Part shown: positions 797 to 10,679 of the stretch, piece by piece | Position numbering within the stretch: position 1 is the first letter of the stretch | Layout of the letters: each line of letters opens with the position of its first letter | Source: a virus | Lineage: Duplodnaviria > Heunggongvirae > Uroviricota > Caudoviricetes | Virus record (IMG/VR): IMGVR_UViG_2648501186_000016 | Length of the DNA stretch: 10,679 nucleotides | Reading direction: 5' to 3' (one strand) | Program-made: the position numbers and the translations under genes | The notes under the pieces: model-generated | What the model saw: only the letters and a program-made list of their open reading frames with translations | Database searches by the model: none | Told to the model about the DNA's origin: nothing

Positions 797-1624
797 TCAG
801 GCGGCTGCACCCGCCGGTTTCTCATACTTACTGATAGTGATCTCGACCTTCCCTTTCGGGATAACCGGTCCCCACTCCACCAGCATTCTTTTCACCTGTC
901 TGTCGTCTTCCCACACACCCGCGTGGGTCAGGGCGTCAAACAGCGCCTTGTTATAGTTGTCCAGATCGCGGATCCGGTTACCCATCGCAGATACCCAGCC
1001 CGCATAGCGTTTCACACCTTCCAGCATGGTTTCGGGGTTTACCCCCTCATTCAAACGGGCTTTCCAGGCTTTGAAGGCTGCAGATTTTGAATTGCCACCA
1101 GCACGTTTGGGATATGCCAGCCATGCCTGCTCAAACTCCGGAGAGTATTCCGGTCGGTTTGAACGAACTCGCACAGACTCATCAGCAGATGCACCAACAG
1201 CTATTGGTTCATTGACTGGTTCTTTGACTGGTTCAAAAGAGTGACTGGTTCTGGGTGAATCTCCTGCATTACCCCCTGGTGCAACTCCTGCACTACCTGG
1301 TGAATTTGCTGCACCAGATAGTGAATTATTTGCACTACCCCCTAGTGAATCTCCTGCACCATCCAGATGAAGGAGATAGATATTACTTGAGTTACCTTTT
1401 TCACCTTTCCGGGTGACTTTTTTTACCAGCCCGGACTCACAAAGGGCCGCAATATGATTCATCACAGAACGTTTGCTAATCTCGCACTGGTCAGCAATAT
1501 GCTGGTAGCTGGGCCAGCACTCACCCTGATCGCTGGCATTATCAGCCAGCTTGATCAGAACCAGTTTTCGCAATGGATTACCCACTCGAATTTTCATCGC
1601 TTTAACCATCAGCGCCATACTCAT
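797..1624 (-). CDS. Phage replication initiator-like protein (N-terminal winged-helix DNA-binding domain, low-complexity linker, C-terminal domain), lambda O-like architecture
   Basis: 275-aa ORF, ATG at 1624 with GGAGG 6 nt upstream and ATGA overlap with the preceding ORF. N-terminus LRKLVLIKLADNASDQGECWPSYQHIADQCEISKRSVMNHIAALCESGLVKK looks like a wHTH replication-protein domain; the middle is a Gly/Ser/Ala/Pro-rich linker. Product assignment is by pattern recall, not search. Confidence 0.65.
   Translation of the reverse strand: MSMALMVKAMKIRVGNPLRKLVLIKLADNASDQGECWPSYQHIADQCEISKRSVMNHIAALCESGLVKKVTRKGEKGNSSNIYLLHLDGAGDSLGGSANNSLSGAANSPGSAGVAPGGNAGDSPRTSHSFEPVKEPVNEPIAVGASADESVRVRSNRPEYSPEFEQAWLAYPKRAGGNSKSAAFKAWKARLNEGVNPETMLEGVKRYAGWVSAMGNRIRDLDNYNKALFDALTHAGVWEDDRQVKRMLVEWGPVIPKGKVEITISKYEKPAGAAA
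1203..1349. repeat. Iteron-like direct repeats inside the linker-coding part of the O-like gene (candidate ori)
   Basis: TGACTGGTTC at 1213-1222, 1225-1234 and 1242-1251; GTGAATCTCCTGCA at 1255-1268 and 1335-1348; related GTGAAT...TGCAC units at about 1299-1314 and 1320-1335, giving a roughly 21-23 bp period. Confidence 0.5.
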
Positions 1625-7203: not shown

Positions 7204-7237
7204 GTCTTTCAACTGCACAACCATTGGAGGGGTAGCA

Positions 7238-7432
7238 ATGAACAACTTAATGACAACTAAACAGGTCGCCGACTTCTGTGGTGTTTCAATATCAACAGTG
7301 CTTCGCTGGAACAGCATAAACCATAGAACAGGTAAGAAATATAGACCAGACTTTCCTGATCCTGATATAAAATCCTGTCCCAATAAATGGGCATCACACA
7401 AGATTTATAGGTTTGCGGGTATTATCGAATAA
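7238..7432 (+). CDS. AlpA/excisionase-family small HTH DNA-binding protein (64 aa)
   Basis: Internal ATG at 7238 of track ORF 7049..7432, with GGAGG at 7226-7230. MTTKQVADFCGVSISTVLRW...RPDFPDP resembles the AlpA/Xis HTH pattern (compare AlpA ...ATIYDWL...ATFPKK). Confidence 0.65.
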   Translation: MNNLMTTKQVADFCGVSISTVLRWNSINHRTGKKYRPDFPDPDIKSCPNKWASHKIYRFAGIIE

Positions 7433-8164
7433 CATTTATTTGTTTCGATGTTAGCTGACACATCTATGGCACAGAGCAAAACCGAATATGATTGTCCACT
7501 CTGTGCTAGTAGAAAACATAGATATCAACTATCCGTACCAATCTATGAGTATAGAATAAATTAATCTGCTCGCAACTAATAGCCTCTAACAGCCAATACA
7601 GTGCCACCGATGATACAAAAAACAATACTCCAAAAAGCGTCTGGTATTGGATTGTCATTACTAGCTTCCGAGGTGAGATATGCATTAAGCCAGGTGCGCT
7701 GGAAAAGTTATGTTTCCCTAATGGAATTGCCCATGACTCAACATATTTTTTCTCTGTTGCTAGCGAATAGACCTAAAATGATAAGCACCATTAACATCAA
7801 CAGCGCCCCCTTGAGCTCTTCTTTTCGGTGAAAAGCCCATCATCAACGGCGCATTGCCTAACCCGAATTCTAGCCACCTTAGCCAGTATTTACCCCCTAG
7901 ATACCAAATGCTTACCCCTCTATTTGCTCTGATAATACTTTATTGCATAATCCCTCACTACATTAGACACTGCGTCAATCCTGCCTTCTATAGCTTGTTT
8001 TAACGCTTTCGGCACATTCCTCTGAACCAGCCCAAGATATGGCTGTTAAATTTTTACTTACATTCAAAAAAACTTTAACTTTTGCAATCAGATCATATGA
8101 TGTTGTTAATGGTAATATTCTGAATCTAAAATGACTTAAGAGTTCGTAGGTTAGAGGGACATGT

Positions 8165-9184
8165 ATGACTTCTGAAAGCAACAGAATTGGGAAGATGGGT
8201 GTAAACTACATAGAAGGTGTATTGACAAGATGGGGATGGGGATATCAATCAATTTCGCAAGAAAATGATGATGGGTTTGATGGCTTAATATATATAAGAT
8301 CTAAACGATTTGAGGCGAAAGATAAAGAAAACCGGAGTAAACAATCTTGGGAGTTCACTGGTGGGTTGATTCATGTACAAGTAAAAAGTGGAGATACATA
8401 CATTAGTAGTCGTAATAAAGATGAAATAAGGATCAAAATAAAAAACCTCAATGAAAAGAAGAAAATATGGTCTAGATCGTCTATTCCATGCATACTTGTA
8501 TTTGTTTTTTGGGATCATAATGAAGTTGAGTATTCCTACTGGGCTGATCTTAAATCTGAATTAACTTATTGTGATAACAGTAGTACGCTAATAAAAATCC
8601 CCTTAAAAAATAGATTTATGAGATCCCAAGAGTGTAAGGGGCCTTTAAGACGACTTGCAAGGGTATCGGCCAACTATGCAGATAAGCCGCTGATAGATTT
8701 ATCAAAATTTGACTCATTAAGTGGTAAGCTACCTACAAGTCTAAACAGTAACCTAAATTGTTCTTTGAAAAAGAAAGGTATTGAATTCTATCAGAAATGG
8801 CGATTAATTGGGGCTACAAACCCTTATTTTGGTCCTGTTCTAATAAACAGAACTGGTTGGAGTCATATAACTCGACGAAATCGCCCAATAGCAAGAATTG
8901 AAGCAAGCTTTAATTTGTTACCTTTAGCAGCAAGAATTATAAATGATGTATCTACATGGCGAATGTTAACACCCGTACGACGGTATGATAATAGAAAGGA
9001 TGGTTATGTTTGCTTTATAGATTTCGTTGGGTTAACAGCCAAAGTGAATTTAAAGAATCGCAACTCATCAGAAGTTATGGTTGTGTTAAAAAGGGAGAGG
9101 AGGTATAAACAGGGTGAAGACTGTTCCTCTGCGAAAACAAGATTATGGTTTTACACTGTTTATGAACCTGGAAGAGGAAAATAA
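8165..9184 (+). CDS. Cargo protein with N-terminal Mrr/DUF4365-like PD-(D/E)xK nuclease-fold domain and uncharacterised C-terminal domain; candidate anti-phage defense or Abi effector
   Basis: 339-aa ORF, ATG at 8165 with AGAGGG 6 nt upstream. N-terminus IGKMGVNYIEGVLTRWGWGYQSISQENDDGFDGLIYI...GGLIHVQVKSGDTYI...IPCILVFVFWDHNEVEYSYWADL fits the DUF4365/Mrr pattern (G-rich start, GW, D-x-GxDG, QxK, hydrophobic strand plus YW). Gene is about 32% GC in two hand-counted 60-bp samples versus about 50% in flanks. Confidence 0.75.
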   Translation: MTSESNRIGKMGVNYIEGVLTRWGWGYQSISQENDDGFDGLIYIRSKRFEAKDKENRSKQSWEFTGGLIHVQVKSGDTYISSRNKDEIRIKIKNLNEKKKIWSRSSIPCILVFVFWDHNEVEYSYWADLKSELTYCDNSSTLIKIPLKNRFMRSQECKGPLRRLARVSANYADKPLIDLSKFDSLSGKLPTSLNSNLNCSLKKKGIEFYQKWRLIGATNPYFGPVLINRTGWSHITRRNRPIARIEASFNLLPLAARIINDVSTWRMLTPVRRYDNRKDGYVCFIDFVGLTAKVNLKNRNSSEVMVVLKRERRYKQGEDCSSAKTRLWFYTVYEPGRGK

Positions 9185-9393
9185 ATTGAGGCGGTACAAT
9201 CGCGCTCAGGCTGTCCCAGACGTGATGCATAACACCACCGGTTCCAGAATTTAAGGATCTGGACCTTCAATTATGCGTGTACCGCCTTATGCAACAATAC
9301 TATAAAATTATTAAACGTCAAGATGTTCAATAAGATTTGGGCTTTCATGCCACAACACGAAAGTTCATTTTATAACGTCTAAAGCTTTCACAA

Positions 9394-9422
9394 TGTCCGC
9401 TTTTCGCAGCTCAAAGCGGACA
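9394..9422. terminator. Inverted repeat between convergent cargo and integrase genes (possible bidirectional terminator)
   Basis: 10-bp stem TGTCCGCTTT (9394-9403) / AAAGCGGACA (9413-9422) with 9-nt loop; flanks are only moderately U-rich on either strand. Confidence 0.3.
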
Positions 9423-9455
9423 GTCATATTTGATTGTATTCTGGCTACTGGAGCC

Positions 9456-10679
9456 TCAGTTAGAGTCTGAGATAGTACAAGTAATGATCGATTCAACTCT
9501 CTCCCACCATGCCTGGTAGGCTTTACGCTGTTCTTCTAGATAATCGCTCTTATCATAAACTTGCCATACCCCTGGCAGTTTATGGCCGAGCATTATTTCT
9601 GCAATATGAGGCGCAGTAAGATCAGAAAAGTTTGTTCGTGCTGTTCGCCTCAAATCATGAAGAGACCAATGAGGGAATTGATACCCCAAACGCCGCCATG
9701 CGTACTGCATTAAATTGTAAGGCAGCGACTGCAATGATGTTCGTCCAACGGGTTCCCTGCTTCCTTCCTTAGTAAAAAGCATATCGGAACCATTGTTCAT
9801 AGAGATAACGTACTTTATAAGCTCTTCAACCGGTTCAATAATGGGGCGCTTTAGCGGTTCGCCTGTTATATCCCCTGTCTTATGTCGTTCTGGCGGTACA
9901 GTCCATACCTTATTAATGAAATCAAAATCATCCACCCTAGCGGTAATTAGCTCTGAACTACGGCAGCCAAAATGCAGCAATAGTTTAATGAAGGCCCGGT
10001 ATTTAGGAACCATTCGAGAACCATCGATCGCAGCATAAAGGATTTTAATTTCATCATGTGTCAGAAACCGTTTCTTCTGACCTTTACGGATATCCATATC
10101 TTTACCCGTGATATCCGACAGCGGGCGGGTTTCAATGAGCTTTCTCTTATAGGCCCAGACATGGGCCTGCTTTGCGTTAATTAGCAATCGGTCTGCTATT
10201 GCTGGAGTCTTAGTGCTAAGAGGCTCTAAGACTTCTAACCAATCATGCAATGTAGCTGCATCGTGAGGGATACTCCCGATTTTAGAGAACAGGTGCAGCT
10301 CAAACGAGCGGAGTATCTGTTCAGAACCTTTTTTATTTTTTACACAATATGCTTCATACCAGGCACGGATCACAGACTCTACCGTCATGGCTTCAGTAGC
10401 TTTTCGTTTTTCAGCCTGCTTGACCAATCGTGGATTACGGTTTGACTCGAGTTCACCACGAAGACGGAGAACTTCTTCTCTGGCCTCTTTTAATCCAGTT
10501 GCCGGGTAAGTTCCGATATCAAGACGCTCACCTTTCCCTGCCCATTGATAACGATATTGGAACACTACGCGACCTTTCGGTGATACTCTGACAGACAGAC
10601 CATCACGATCGGATTTAACCAAAACCTTATCACGTTCCTTTCCAACGACTGAACGCAACCACGCATCAGACAGCGCCAT
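9456..10679 (-). CDS. Tyrosine-type site-specific integrase, P4/CP4-57-like family
   Basis: 407-aa ORF whose ATG is the last three bases of the window. N-terminus MALSDAWLRSVVGKERDKVLVKSDRDGLSVRVSPKGRVVFQYRYQWAGKGERLDIGTYP resembles the arm-binding domain of P4-type integrases; C-terminus carries the recombinase signature (R in GCRSSEL, HDLRRTART, LGHK, Y in VYDKSDY). Confidence 0.9.
   Translation of the reverse strand: MALSDAWLRSVVGKERDKVLVKSDRDGLSVRVSPKGRVVFQYRYQWAGKGERLDIGTYPATGLKEAREEVLRLRGELESNRNPRLVKQAEKRKATEAMTVESVIRAWYEAYCVKNKKGSEQILRSFELHLFSKIGSIPHDAATLHDWLEVLEPLSTKTPAIADRLLINAKQAHVWAYKRKLIETRPLSDITGKDMDIRKGQKKRFLTHDEIKILYAAIDGSRMVPKYRAFIKLLLHFGCRSSELITARVDDFDFINKVWTVPPERHKTGDITGEPLKRPIIEPVEELIKYVISMNNGSDMLFTKEGSREPVGRTSLQSLPYNLMQYAWRRLGYQFPHWSLHDLRRTARTNFSDLTAPHIAEIMLGHKLPGVWQVYDKSDYLEEQRKAYQAWWERVESIITCTISDSN

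What the first reader, a model, noticed from the sequence alone, without database searches (positions are those of the whole stretch)
8165..9184. AT-rich single-gene cargo encoding a DUF4365/Mrr-like nuclease-fold protein next to the integrase: candidate uncharacterised anti-phage defense
The 339-aa protein has a recognisable N-terminal PD-(D/E)xK-type signature (D35/D36/D39 in DDGFDG, then Q72-x-K74 in HVQVKS, then a hydrophobic strand and YW), but its C-terminal 200 aa match nothing I can name. The gene is much more AT-rich than its neighbours and sits between an AlpA-like gene and the integrase, a position where prophages and satellites commonly carry defense cargo. A nuclease-fold sensor/effector here would fit an abortive-infection or restriction-like role. 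I cannot place it in a named defense family from sequence alone.
Basis: partly seen in the sequence, partly recalled or inferred. Interest (0 to 1): 0.8.

Follow-up and report, generated by a model that had tools for sequence, protein, structure and literature searches.

The report
Prophage nuclease gene with partner RNA
A prophage cargo gene in E. coli encodes a SPARDA-type (DREN) nuclease fused to a previously undescribed basic domain, and it always travels with an unannotated, convergently transcribed structured small RNA, so it looks like a two-part RNA-controlled defence or toxin module rather than a lone gene.

Summary
ORF 8165-9184 (+) encodes 339 aa, lies in a 33-37% GC trough, and matches Pfam DUF4365 (E 7e-19). 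D39, Q72 and K74 are invariant and fit the D...QxK active site of the SPARDA DREN nuclease.

The C-terminal 185 aa match no Pfam, NCBIfam, PHROG or PDB entry. They define a real domain family (295 representative clusters) that is also fused to SIR2, TIR, CHAT, EAD11 and GIY-YIG-type effectors.

The "single-gene" reading is incomplete. A ~100-nt three-stem element (window 9188-9288, minus strand) starts 4 nt after the stop codon. It has its own conserved sigma-70 promoter (9321-9294) and is more conserved than the coding sequence.
- Pairing is 96.4%, against 78% in shuffles.
- 19 of 27 pairs show compensatory changes.
- G-U counts favour the minus strand.
- It has no Rfam match and no attC core sites.
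- It is found only next to this gene family.
- A different element class follows C-domains fused to SIR2, TIR or GIY-YIG effectors, so the RNA tracks the C-domain, not the nuclease.

Best reading (about 45%): an RNA-controlled, type-III-TA-like abortive-infection nuclease carried in prophage accessory slots. No function has been shown experimentally.

The parts
8165..9184 (+). Protein gene, 339 aa (WP_021537117.1, annotated 'DUF4365 domain-containing protein')
   Evidence: ORF list. PGAP annotation in an identical E. coli locus. 98 homologs, nearly all about 340 aa with the same two-domain layout.
8192..8623 (+). DUF4365 / DREN-type nuclease domain (aa 10-153). Catalytic candidates: D39 (8279-8281), Q72 (8378-8380), K74 (8384-8386)
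   Evidence: Pfam PF14280 E 7.3e-19. Invariant D35/D36/G37/D39/Q72/K74 in 94 sequences. Foldseek E 7e-11 to 4e-10 to SPARDA DREN-APAZ chains 9qcc and 9vx6. VQVKS aligns with XauSPARDA VQVKS. NbaSPARDA is inactivated by D41A/Q60A/K62A.
8627..9181 (+). Undescribed basic C-terminal domain (aa 155-339). Invariant residues: G223, R229, G231, W232, H234, T236, R237, R240, S248, L251, L252, G289, Y330, Y333, P335, R337
9188..9288 (-). Structured small-RNA element: closing stem P1 (9+3 bp), hairpins P2 and P3, conserved junctions ACAAUAGAG and (U)CAGUCUGAG. Its 3' end abuts the stop codon of the protein gene
   Evidence: More conserved than the CDS. CM R1 hit at 98 bits. A model built from close homologs recovers all distant ones and an independent Salmonella plasmid copy at E 3e-9. 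96.4% paired against 77.9% in shuffles, 19 of 27 pairs with double changes. 55 G-U against 3 A-C cells favour the minus strand. No Rfam match.
9294..9321 (-). Sigma-70-type promoter of the small RNA: -35 TTGACG (9321-9316), 16-nt spacer, -10 TATTGT (9299-9294). The predicted start is at about 9287, the first bases of P1
   Evidence: Promoter scan. The same TTGAC[AGT]-16-TAT[TG][GA]T is present in 10 of 10 close loci, 5-10 nt upstream of the model start. Distant loci keep a -10-like box at that distance.
8103..8159 (+). Possible promoter of the protein gene (TTGTTA-18-TAAAAT, 8103-8132) and Shine-Dalgarno GAGGGA (8154-8159)
   Evidence: Promoter-like sites are not more frequent here than in shuffles, and this region is not conserved in other genera. 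Weak evidence.
7507..9414 (.). Variable cargo segment of the prophage: 658-bp unannotated AT-rich leader, the gene, the RNA and its promoter
   Evidence: Similarity to sister prophages at the yjjG site stops at 7506 and resumes at 9415-9456. Segments 7507-8164 and 9185-9330 each occur in exactly the same 22 E. coli genomes as the gene.
7241..7432 (+). Part of the prophage backbone
   Evidence: Sub-threshold HTH_17/MerR hits. Region 7226-7506 is conserved at 80-84% in sister prophages. Not annotated by PGAP.
9456..10679 (-). Tyrosine integrase of the prophage (context, not part of the module)
   Evidence: Pfam Phage_integrase, Arm-DNA-bind_3 and Phage_int_M. Next to yjjG in the complete genome.

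Best explanation
This is a two-part accessory module that moves between prophage 'moron' slots, plasmids and defence islands.

Part 1 is a protein with an N-terminal DREN-type (DUF4365) metal-dependent nuclease as the effector. It is fused to a very basic, previously undescribed C-terminal domain that acts as the regulatory, RNA-binding part.

Part 2 is a structured small RNA of about 100-110 nt. It is transcribed from its own promoter on the opposite strand, and it starts at the far end of the element and ends at the gene's stop codon.

Proposed mechanism:
1. In uninfected cells the RNA binds the C-terminal domain and keeps the nuclease monomeric and inactive. It may also pair with the read-through 3' end of the mRNA.
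2. When a phage shuts off host transcription or degrades or alters the RNA, the RNA is lost.
3. The protein then self-associates, the DREN domains oligomerise as they must in SPARDA, and DNA is degraded indiscriminately. This is abortive infection.

Shown here: the nuclease-domain assignment with conserved active-site residues; the existence, strand, structure, promoter and strict gene linkage of the RNA; co-variation of RNA class with C-domain clade across different effectors; and mobile or defence-type contexts.

Inferred: RNA-protein binding, the antitoxin role, the trigger, nuclease activity and phage defence itself.
For: Nuclease domain:
- Pfam DUF4365 E 7e-19.
- D39/Q72/K74 invariant in 94 homologs.
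- Foldseek E about 1e-10 to SPARDA DREN-APAZ.
- The QxK motif aligns with XauSPARDA.
- The DREN triple mutant D41A/Q60A/K62A is dead.
- Isolated DREN is monomeric and inactive, and is activated by tetramerisation (PMC12205087).

RNA element:
- The 3' flank is more conserved than the CDS in 7 genera.
- In an unbiased scan, all 8 loci with the full element also had the gene ending about 13 nt upstream, and 38 chance core matches had neither.
- In E. coli the element is in exactly the 22 genomes that have the gene.
- A model built from close homologs recovers all distant-subfamily elements on the minus strand right after the stop, and an independent Salmonella plasmid copy.
- 96.4% of cells pair against 77.9 +/- 1.2% in shuffles (0/500) and 25-43% when partners are slid; 19 of 27 pairs have double changes.
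- 55 G-U against 3 A-C cells; the minus-strand fold is more stable in 19 of 22 loci.
- A conserved promoter is present in 10 of 10 close loci.
- A closing stem of at least 7 bp within 7 nt of the stop occurs in 19 of 25 homolog genes against 7 of 211 control ORFs.

RNA linked to the C-domain:
- SIR2-C, TIR-DUF4365-C and T5orf172-C genes share one other element class directly after their stops.
- Their C-domains are mutually closest, at 44-53% identity.
- The C-domain has pI 10.3 and net charge +21.

Defence or mobile context:
- Four different prophage slots.
- Neighbours include OLD, an XamI/Eco57I R-M system, SIR2-HerA, Septu PtuA, SspE and GmrSD.
- No conserved protein partner.

Precedents: sRNAs that bind and inhibit enzyme toxins and decay on transcription shutoff (AvcID; AbiF/RCd22).
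Against: - There are no expression data, so the RNA's ends, abundance and stability are unknown.
- Only P1 plus a moderately U-rich tail would terminate the RNA, and the tail is weak in some genera.
- RNA-protein binding is not tested and cannot be modelled here.
- The link between RNA class and C-domain clade across effectors rests on three architectures only.
- One CHAT fusion locus (L094) and three other loci (L027, L028, L031) showed no clear stem-enclosed element with my criteria.
- The Bacteroidota, Marinobacter, Bacillus and 'class II' elements are not detectably homologous to the E. coli class. A single ancestral RNA partner is therefore not proven.
- EAD11- and CHAT-containing architectures could mean that DUF4365-C as a whole is an effector recruited by other sensors.
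- Known type III antitoxins are upstream, on the same strand and repetitive, unlike this RNA.
Confidence: 0.45

Rival explanations
1. Cis-antisense (type-I-like) control only. The convergent RNA acts by pairing with the read-through 3' end of the nuclease mRNA, leading to RNase III cleavage, or by transcriptional interference. It sets expression level, or insulates the gene from integrase-side transcription. The C-terminal domain senses phage on its own and does not contact the RNA.
For: - The arrangement is convergent and the RNA's 3' end reaches the stop codon.
- No plus-strand terminator was found between the stop codon and the element, so the mRNA probably contains the full complement of the RNA.
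- The AbiF RNA RCd22 also lowers expression of its toxin gene.
Against: - Simple antisense pairing does not need a three-way junction with invariant unpaired junction sequences conserved from Enterobacteria to Acidobacteriota.
- It also does not need strand-specific G-U pairs.
- The RNA barely overlaps the coding region (offset 0-7 nt after the stop).
- The element class follows the C-domain clade across unrelated effectors.
Confidence: 0.2
2. The RNA is a positive cofactor. It acts as a scaffold, sensor or guide that the C-terminal domain uses to detect an invader, for example by binding a phage nucleic acid or protein or by being modified or cleaved. It then nucleates oligomerisation of the effector. 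This would be a ribonucleoprotein immune sensor, not a toxin-antitoxin pair.
For: - The gene-RNA linkage and covariation evidence is the same as for the main explanation.
- DREN needs induced tetramerisation.
- Swappable effectors (DREN, SIR2, TIR) on a constant module mirror the effector-APAZ proteins of short Argonaute systems, which are RNA-guided.
Against: - The unpaired junctions are invariant across phyla, which argues against guide-like recognition of variable invader sequences.
- There is no Argonaute-like or helicase partner.
- There is no variable region suited to target pairing.
Confidence: 0.12
3. The module is not an immune system. It is a selfish addiction or stabilisation cassette, a toxin plus a labile RNA antidote that maintains the prophage or plasmid. 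Alternatively, the 3' element is mainly a DNA-level site for cassette mobility.
For: - The cassette, from the start codon to about 140 bp past the stop, moves as a unit between unrelated prophage slots and plasmids.
- Decayed copies exist: IS-split in L034 and frameshifted on a Salmonella plasmid.
- TA modules commonly serve both roles.
Against: - None of 21 elements has integron attC core sites.
- The conserved promoter and the G-U asymmetry indicate a transcribed RNA.
- Neighbours are enriched for defence genes, and the alternative N-terminal domains are classical immune effectors.
Confidence: 0.1
4. It is a stand-alone type IV / Mrr-like restriction enzyme. The C-terminal domain binds modified phage DNA and directs the nuclease. 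The 3' element is only an unusual bidirectional terminator.
For: - The nuclease domain is of the PD-(D/E)xK type.
- Conserved aromatic and basic residues in the C-domain (W232, F249, Y330, Y333, R229, R237, R240) could form a base- or phosphate-binding pocket.
- The gene lies next to an R-M system in Acinetobacter.
Against: - There is no Mrr_cat or other restriction-enzyme profile hit.
- The same C-domain is fused to SIR2, TIR and CHAT, which are not restriction effectors.
- A terminator would not keep invariant junction sequences, a three-way junction and its own promoter.
Confidence: 0.05

Closest known systems
DREN-APAZ effector of SPARDA (short prokaryotic Argonaute, DNase/RNase-associated)
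   Same: - Same nuclease domain family (DUF4365/DREN).
- Same D...QxK catalytic pattern.
- Best structural match in the PDB.
- The nuclease sits N-terminal to a regulatory C-terminal part.
- The same trio of alternative effectors (nuclease, SIR2, TIR) is found on one constant partner domain.
   Different: - No Argonaute gene in the window or as a conserved neighbour.
- The partner here is a fixed structured RNA encoded next to the gene, not guides sampled from transcripts.
Type III toxin-antitoxin / RNA-antitoxin defence modules (ToxIN; AvcID; AbiF-RCd22)
   Same: - A toxic enzyme is paired with an adjacent non-coding RNA.
- The modules are carried on prophages and other mobile elements.
- In AvcID the sRNA binds and inhibits the enzyme and is lost on phage-induced transcription shutoff.
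- RCd22 neutralises AbiF by direct RNA-protein contact and also lowers its expression.
   Different: - The RNA is downstream and on the opposite strand.
- It is single-copy and a three-way junction, not tandem repeats or an upstream leader.
- The toxin domain is a DREN DNase, not ToxN, a deaminase or a HEPN domain.
- No binding or inhibition has been shown for this RNA.
- The RNA matches no Rfam family, including the abiF motif.
Divona (single-gene anti-phage cassette of the Vibrio cholerae chromosomal integron: DUF4365 + 'crr6' domain)
   Same: - A DUF4365 N-terminal domain is fused to an otherwise unknown C-terminal domain.
- It has experimentally shown anti-phage activity.
- Its E. coli homologs are reported within 20 kb of integrases, which fits this locus.
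   Different: - None of 30 C-domains of this family hits Pfam crr6 PF08847 even at E <= 1.
- No Vibrio protein was named among the 98 homologs.
- No RNA partner is described for Divona.
Type I toxin-antitoxin pairs with 3'-overlapping antisense RNAs
   Same: - The antisense RNA is convergent and has its own promoter at the 3' end of a toxin gene.
- The location is a prophage.
   Different: - The toxin is a 339-aa two-domain enzyme, not a small membrane peptide.
- The RNA overlaps at most the last few codons.
- The RNA has a conserved, covarying tertiary-type architecture.

Membership tests
DUF4365 / DREN nuclease domain (Pfam PF14280) | Profile match above the curated cut-off | tested here: met
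   68.6 bits against a cut-off of 24.3, E 7.3e-19, aa 10-153.
DUF4365 / DREN nuclease domain (Pfam PF14280) | Catalytic D ... Q-x-K residues (NbaSPARDA D41/Q60/K62) | tested here: met
   D39, Q72 and K74 are invariant in 94 homologs. VQVKS aligns with the XauSPARDA DREN. The mutant data come from the literature.
DUF4365 / DREN nuclease domain (Pfam PF14280) | Structural similarity to solved DREN domains | tested here: met
   Foldseek E 6.9e-11 to 4.3e-10, probability 1.00, to 9qcc and 9vx6 chains. Model pLDDT 89.
DUF4365 / DREN nuclease domain (Pfam PF14280) | Metal-dependent, oligomerisation-activated nuclease activity | not testable with these tools
   Needs biochemistry.
SPARDA system | APAZ domain C-terminal to DREN | tested here: not met
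   [not shown]
SPARDA system | Adjacent short Argonaute (MID-PIWI) gene | tested here: not met
   The neighbours in the window are yfdR and the integrase. No neighbour family is shared by more than 3 of 21 loci.
Type III toxin-antitoxin | Non-coding RNA gene adjacent to and co-inherited with the toxin gene | tested here: met
   Strict linkage. Covariation. Promoter.
Type III toxin-antitoxin | Antitoxin RNA upstream, on the same strand, made of tandem repeats processed by the toxin | tested here: not met
   The RNA is downstream, on the opposite strand and single-copy.
Type III toxin-antitoxin | RNA binds and neutralises the toxin protein | not testable with these tools
   Indirect evidence only: a basic C-domain, and the RNA class tracking the C-domain clade.
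Type I toxin-antitoxin | Small hydrophobic toxin peptide | tested here: not met
   The product is a 339-aa soluble two-domain protein.
Type I toxin-antitoxin | Antisense RNA complementary to the toxin mRNA | tested here: inconclusive
   The RNA is complementary only to the 3' UTR and at most the last codons. The mRNA 3' end is unknown.
Integron gene cassette (attC site 3' of the ORF) | R'' (RYYYAAC) and R' (GTTRRRY) core sites at the ends of the palindrome | tested here: not met
   0 of 21 elements in either orientation. No integron integrase nearby.
Mrr / type IV restriction endonuclease | Mrr_cat-type catalytic domain | tested here: not met
   No Mrr_cat hit at E <= 0.1. The literature places DREN in a topology distinct from Mrr.
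Divona | DUF4365 plus a crr6-like (PF08847) C-terminal domain | tested here: inconclusive
   DUF4365 is met. There is no PF08847 hit in 30 members at E <= 1. The Divona sequence was not obtainable.
HEPN RNase | Rx4-6H motif in an all-alpha four-helix fold | tested here: not met
   [not shown]
Retron | Reverse transcriptase gene next to the ncRNA | tested here: not met
   There is no RT in the window and none among the commonest neighbour families of the related loci.
Any curated RNA family (Rfam 15) | Covariance-model match | tested here: not met
   No relevant hit at E <= 10 in 9050-9460. No gathering-score hit on the elements of nine other loci.

The most novel reading that the evidence does not exclude
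The C-terminal domain and its cognate structured RNA form a new, widespread ribonucleoprotein switch of bacterial immunity. This is a constant RNA-protein sensor or regulator module, found from Proteobacteria to Bacteroidota and Bacillota. Evolution has plugged interchangeable effectors onto it: DREN nuclease, SIR2, TIR, GIY-YIG nuclease and CHAT protease. The RNA would be an obligatory partner, either as a labile antidote or as the sensing element itself.
Probability: 0.3. Interest if true: 0.9.

Novelty: new variant of a known kind. Interest (0 to 1): 0.8.

Why it matters
DREN nucleases are so far understood only as Argonaute-dependent effectors. This family shows the same effector wired to a different control module that has no Argonaute.

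If the RNA-domain pairing is functional, it defines three things:
- a new structured RNA family;
- a new RNA-associated protein domain;
- a new way of gating nuclease, NADase and protease effectors.

It would add to the very short list of defence systems that depend on a dedicated non-coding RNA: CRISPR, retrons, DRTs and type III TAs.

It is also a practical warning. 'Single-gene' defence candidates cloned from start to stop codon would lose this RNA, and could appear simply toxic or inactive.

The hypothesis is directly testable with one Northern blot and a toxicity-rescue assay.

Tried and rejected
- **Known defence families.** PADLOC gave only weak N-terminal hits (Aga_REase 9e-9, PDC-M02A 9e-5). 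NCBIfam and PHROGs gave nothing.
- **Phage genomes.** There was no tblastn hit in 50,697 phage records.
- **APAZ-like C-domain.** This was suggested by long Foldseek alignments to DREN-APAZ. I rejected it after modelling the domain alone.
- **Viral fold library.** Nothing was significant. The afdb50 library was unavailable.
- **Stand-alone C-domain proteins as a separate architecture.** I rejected this for the one case examined: P0106 is an IS-split gene. Many of the other short forms are probably fragments.
- **A conserved protein partner.** None was found.
- **attC recombination site.** Rejected.
- **Small ORF 9075-9230 (-) inside the element.** I consider coding unlikely, because loop lengths vary by non-multiples of three and the changes are compensatory in stems.
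- **One RNA superfamily for all classes.** Not supported: model R2 finds only class I.
- **IS3 insertion in four strains as a natural RNA knockout.** It lies upstream and leaves the RNA intact.
- **Divona identity.** The supplement and two further papers gave no sequence, and a profile search of the large protein database was cut by its candidate cap.
- **LPD3 (PF18798).** Two sub-threshold hits on divergent C-domains were not pursued.
Full report
**1.

Window 8165-9184 (+) is an intact 339-aa ORF. It has a GAGGGA ribosome-binding site 5 nt upstream. Its N-terminus, MTSESNR, is shared by essentially all homologs. The gene sits in the most AT-rich part of the window, at GC 0.33-0.37 against 0.44-0.55 elsewhere.

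The window is E. coli chromosome and is 100% identical to porcine ETEC strains. PGAP already calls the product 'DUF4365 domain-containing protein'. The surrounding DNA is a lambdoid prophage (cI-like S24 repressor, CII-like, Rha/Ash, YfdP/Q/R, integrase) inserted beside yjjG.

**2. It is variable cargo**

The gene occurs in 22 of 5426 complete E. coli genomes, always at 99.8% identity or more. The flanking integrase or yfdR match hundreds to thousands of genomes.

Sister prophages at the same attachment site hold other things in this slot: an unrelated 342-aa protein, a 239-aa protein, or a CHAT-domain protein with a partner. DNA comparison puts the cargo boundaries at about 7507 and 9414.

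It has only sub-threshold HTH hits and PGAP does not annotate it.

**3. The N-terminal domain is a DREN-type nuclease**

- Pfam DUF4365 matches aa 10-153 at E 7e-19.
- In 94 homologs D35, D36, G37, D39, Q72 and K74 are invariant.
- The AlphaFold model (pLDDT 89) matches the DREN-APAZ chains of activated SPARDA filaments at E 7e-11 to 4e-10.
- A profile-to-sequence alignment places VQVKS on VQVKS of the XauSPARDA protein.

In NbaSPARDA the triple mutant D41A/Q60A/K62A abolishes nuclease activity (bioRxiv 10.1101/2023.06.08.544223). The isolated DREN domain is monomeric and inactive, and it is switched on by tetramerisation (PMC12205087).

The fold assignment and the active-site residues are therefore supported. 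The label 'Mrr-like' is not: there is no Mrr_cat hit, and the literature describes a different topology.

**4. The C-terminal half is a distinct, conserved, undescribed domain**

It has no hit in Pfam, NCBIfam, PHROGs or PDB sequences, alone or as a profile. Sixteen of its positions are nevertheless invariant, among them R229, W232, H234, T236, R237, R240, S248, Y330, Y333, P335 and R337.

An exhaustive profile search found 295 representative clusters (136 at E <= 1e-10). Most have the DUF4365-C layout. The domain is also fused to other effectors:
- SIR2 (4 representatives);
- TIR, with or without DUF4365;
- CHAT-DUF4365;
- EAD11-DUF4365;
- a T5orf172/GIY-YIG-type nuclease;
- possibly HNH.

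The one 'stand-alone' copy I examined was an IS-split gene.

**5. Context elsewhere**

Close homologs occupy other prophage accessory slots:
- between Q and the holin in Yersinia lambdoid prophages;
- between gpV and gpS of a P2-like prophage in Enterobacter;
- near int/xis in Edwardsiella.

Distant homologs lie beside an OLD-family nuclease and a NOV_C giant protein (Pseudomonas), an XamI/Eco57I R-M system (Acinetobacter) and SIR2-HerA. The family also occurs on plasmids of Salmonella, Rhizobium and Bacillus.

Among 142 neighbour ORFs of 21 loci there are type I R-M, Old, PtuA, SspE, GmrSD, HEC-06, DO-GTPases, HNH, integrases and relaxases. No neighbour protein family is shared by more than three loci.

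**6. The unexpected part: a partner RNA**

DNA similarity between the window and the Yersinia and Acinetobacter loci begins at the start codon but runs about 140 bp past the stop. That flank is more conserved than the coding sequence.

It contains an element of about 100 nt closed by a perfect stem (GGCGGTAC...GTACCGCC). Beyond it are two conserved hexamers with a variable 16-nt spacer. On the minus strand these read TTGAC[AGT]-N16-TAT[TG][GA]T and end 5-10 nt before the element. They are present in 10 of 10 close loci.

Evidence that the element is specific to this gene:
- No Rfam family matches it.
- A scan of metagenome and viral collections with its 17-base core gave 46 loci. The 8 that contain the whole element all encode a homolog ending about 13 nt upstream. 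The other 38 are chance matches with neither.
- In E. coli the element is in exactly the same 22 genomes, 100% identical and unannotated.

**7. Structure, strand and significance of the RNA**

The roughly 40%-identity subfamily has the same element. Its closing stem is different (TCGGTGCG...CGCACCGA), its P2 hairpin is replaced, and its junctions are conserved.

A covariance model built only from ten close sequences recovers every distant element. Each is full-length, on the minus strand and right after the stop (E 2e-8 to 6e-3). The model also finds Acidobacteriota and Betaproteobacteria copies and an independent Salmonella plasmid copy (E 3e-9).

On the 21-sequence structural alignment:
- 96.4% of cells pair, against 77.9 +/- 1.2% in shuffles (0/500) and 25-43% for slid partners.
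- 19 of 27 pairs carry compensatory double changes. The caveat is that the alignment was fitted to the model.
- There are 55 G-U cells and only 3 A-C cells, so the structure fits the minus strand (96.4%) better than the plus strand (86.9%).
- The minus-strand fold is more stable in 19 of 22 loci.

A closing stem of at least 7 bp within 7 nt of the stop occurs after 19 of 25 homolog genes but after only 7 of 211 neighbouring ORFs. None of 21 elements has attC core sites.

**8. The RNA follows the C-terminal domain**

Bacteroidota, Marinobacter and Bacillus homologs have stem-enclosed elements at the same place and in the same orientation. The models do not recognise them, so I treat them as separate classes.

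One further class (GGGGCGUCUUUUUUU...GCAUUGCGGUAGAUG...AAGAC.UA..GC.CCC) follows the stop codons of three genes with different effectors: a SIR2-C gene, a TIR-DUF4365-C gene and a T5orf172-C gene. The C-domains of those three are each other's closest relatives, at 44-53% identity. The RNA class therefore tracks the C-domain clade and not the effector. This rests on three architectures. One CHAT fusion locus showed no clear element.

**9. Interpretation**

The best-supported reading is an RNA-controlled nuclease module. The basic C-domain binds the cis-encoded small RNA. The RNA keeps the DREN effector from oligomerising. Loss or alteration of the RNA during infection releases indiscriminate DNA cleavage.

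The precedents are AvcID, in which an sRNA binds and inhibits an enzyme toxin and decays on transcription shutoff (PMC10511110), and AbiF/RCd22 (PMC12373285). Every functional step is inferred.

The rivals are:
- purely antisense control of the mRNA 3' end;
- the RNA as a positive cofactor or sensor;
- an addiction or mobility cassette;
- a type IV-like restriction enzyme.

**10. Relation to known systems and novelty**

The effector domain is a member of the DREN family. The system is not SPARDA, because it has no APAZ domain and no Argonaute. It resembles type III TA systems in logic but fails their architectural features.

It may be related to Divona, the validated DUF4365 cassette of the V. 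cholerae integron, whose E. coli homologs are reported near integrases. I could not obtain that sequence to test this.

I found no description of the RNA, or of the C-domain as an RNA-linked module, in Rfam or in the searched literature. I rate it a new variant of a known kind. The interest is high because it reveals an unannotated RNA partner for a whole family of 'single-gene' candidates and gives a directly testable mechanism.

Noticed in passing
window 7507-8164: A 658-bp AT-rich, unannotated stretch lies upstream of the gene. It occurs only in the same 22 E. coli genomes (partly deleted in strain E1) and is not conserved with other genera. It holds only short minus-strand ORFs: 7506-7685 (59 aa, hydrophobic) and 7975-8181 (68 aa). 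Its role is unknown; it could be a regulatory leader, a remnant or a small membrane protein.
   Followed up: partly
L004 2742-4873 (E. coli 2015C-3107), L002, L003: Sister prophages at the same yjjG attachment site carry other cargo in the integrase-proximal slot: a CHAT-domain protein plus a 260-aa hypothetical protein, a 342-aa hypothetical protein, or a 239-aa hypothetical protein. The slot behaves like a defence or accessory hotspot.
   Followed up: partly
window 797-1624 (-): One 275-aa ORF joins an HTH_36/DnaD_N-like replication-initiator N-terminus to a RusA C-terminal fragment. PGAP annotates this as a truncated HTH pseudogene plus a short RusA gene, so the prophage replication region looks rearranged and the prophage may be defective.
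   Followed up: no
L034 233-5600; L096 2501-3540; E. coli K_EC180 and ETEC1748: There are decayed copies of the gene. One is split by IS21/IS3 insertions. One on a Salmonella IncFIB plasmid is frameshifted, with its RNA element intact. Two E. coli strains have a 1-nt shorter gene match, which may be a frameshift. This would fit a costly or toxic gene.
   Followed up: partly
L091 1552-5210: The T5orf172(GIY-YIG)-C-domain gene, with its 3' element, sits immediately upstream of a SIR2-HerA defence pair in three independent metagenomic contigs.
   Followed up: no
L098 2501-3481 (E. coli H240; listed by PLSDB as a 4.8-Mb 'plasmid', evidently a chromosome): A second, only 26%-identical member of the family exists in E. 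coli and is unannotated in that record. Its 3' flank contains CATCGTAC, which resembles the Bacteroidota-class core, but no clean closing stem was found.
   Followed up: no
L026 6957-7248: A group II intron (Rfam D1-D4 models, E 5e-25) lies about 3 kb upstream of the Marinobacter homolog.
   Followed up: no
P0198 aa 183-246, P0204 aa 167-214: Two divergent C-domains give sub-threshold hits to Pfam LPD3 (large polyvalent protein-associated domain 3; E 2e-4 and 3e-3). This is a possible remote link to phage or conjugative-element polyvalent proteins.
   Followed up: no
window 9176-9189 (-): After the closing stem the minus-strand RNA continues UCAAUUUAUUUUCC, the complement of the Lys/Arg-rich last codons and the stop codon of the protein gene. 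The protein's C-terminal tail and a possible terminator U-tract of the RNA may therefore constrain each other.
   Followed up: partly
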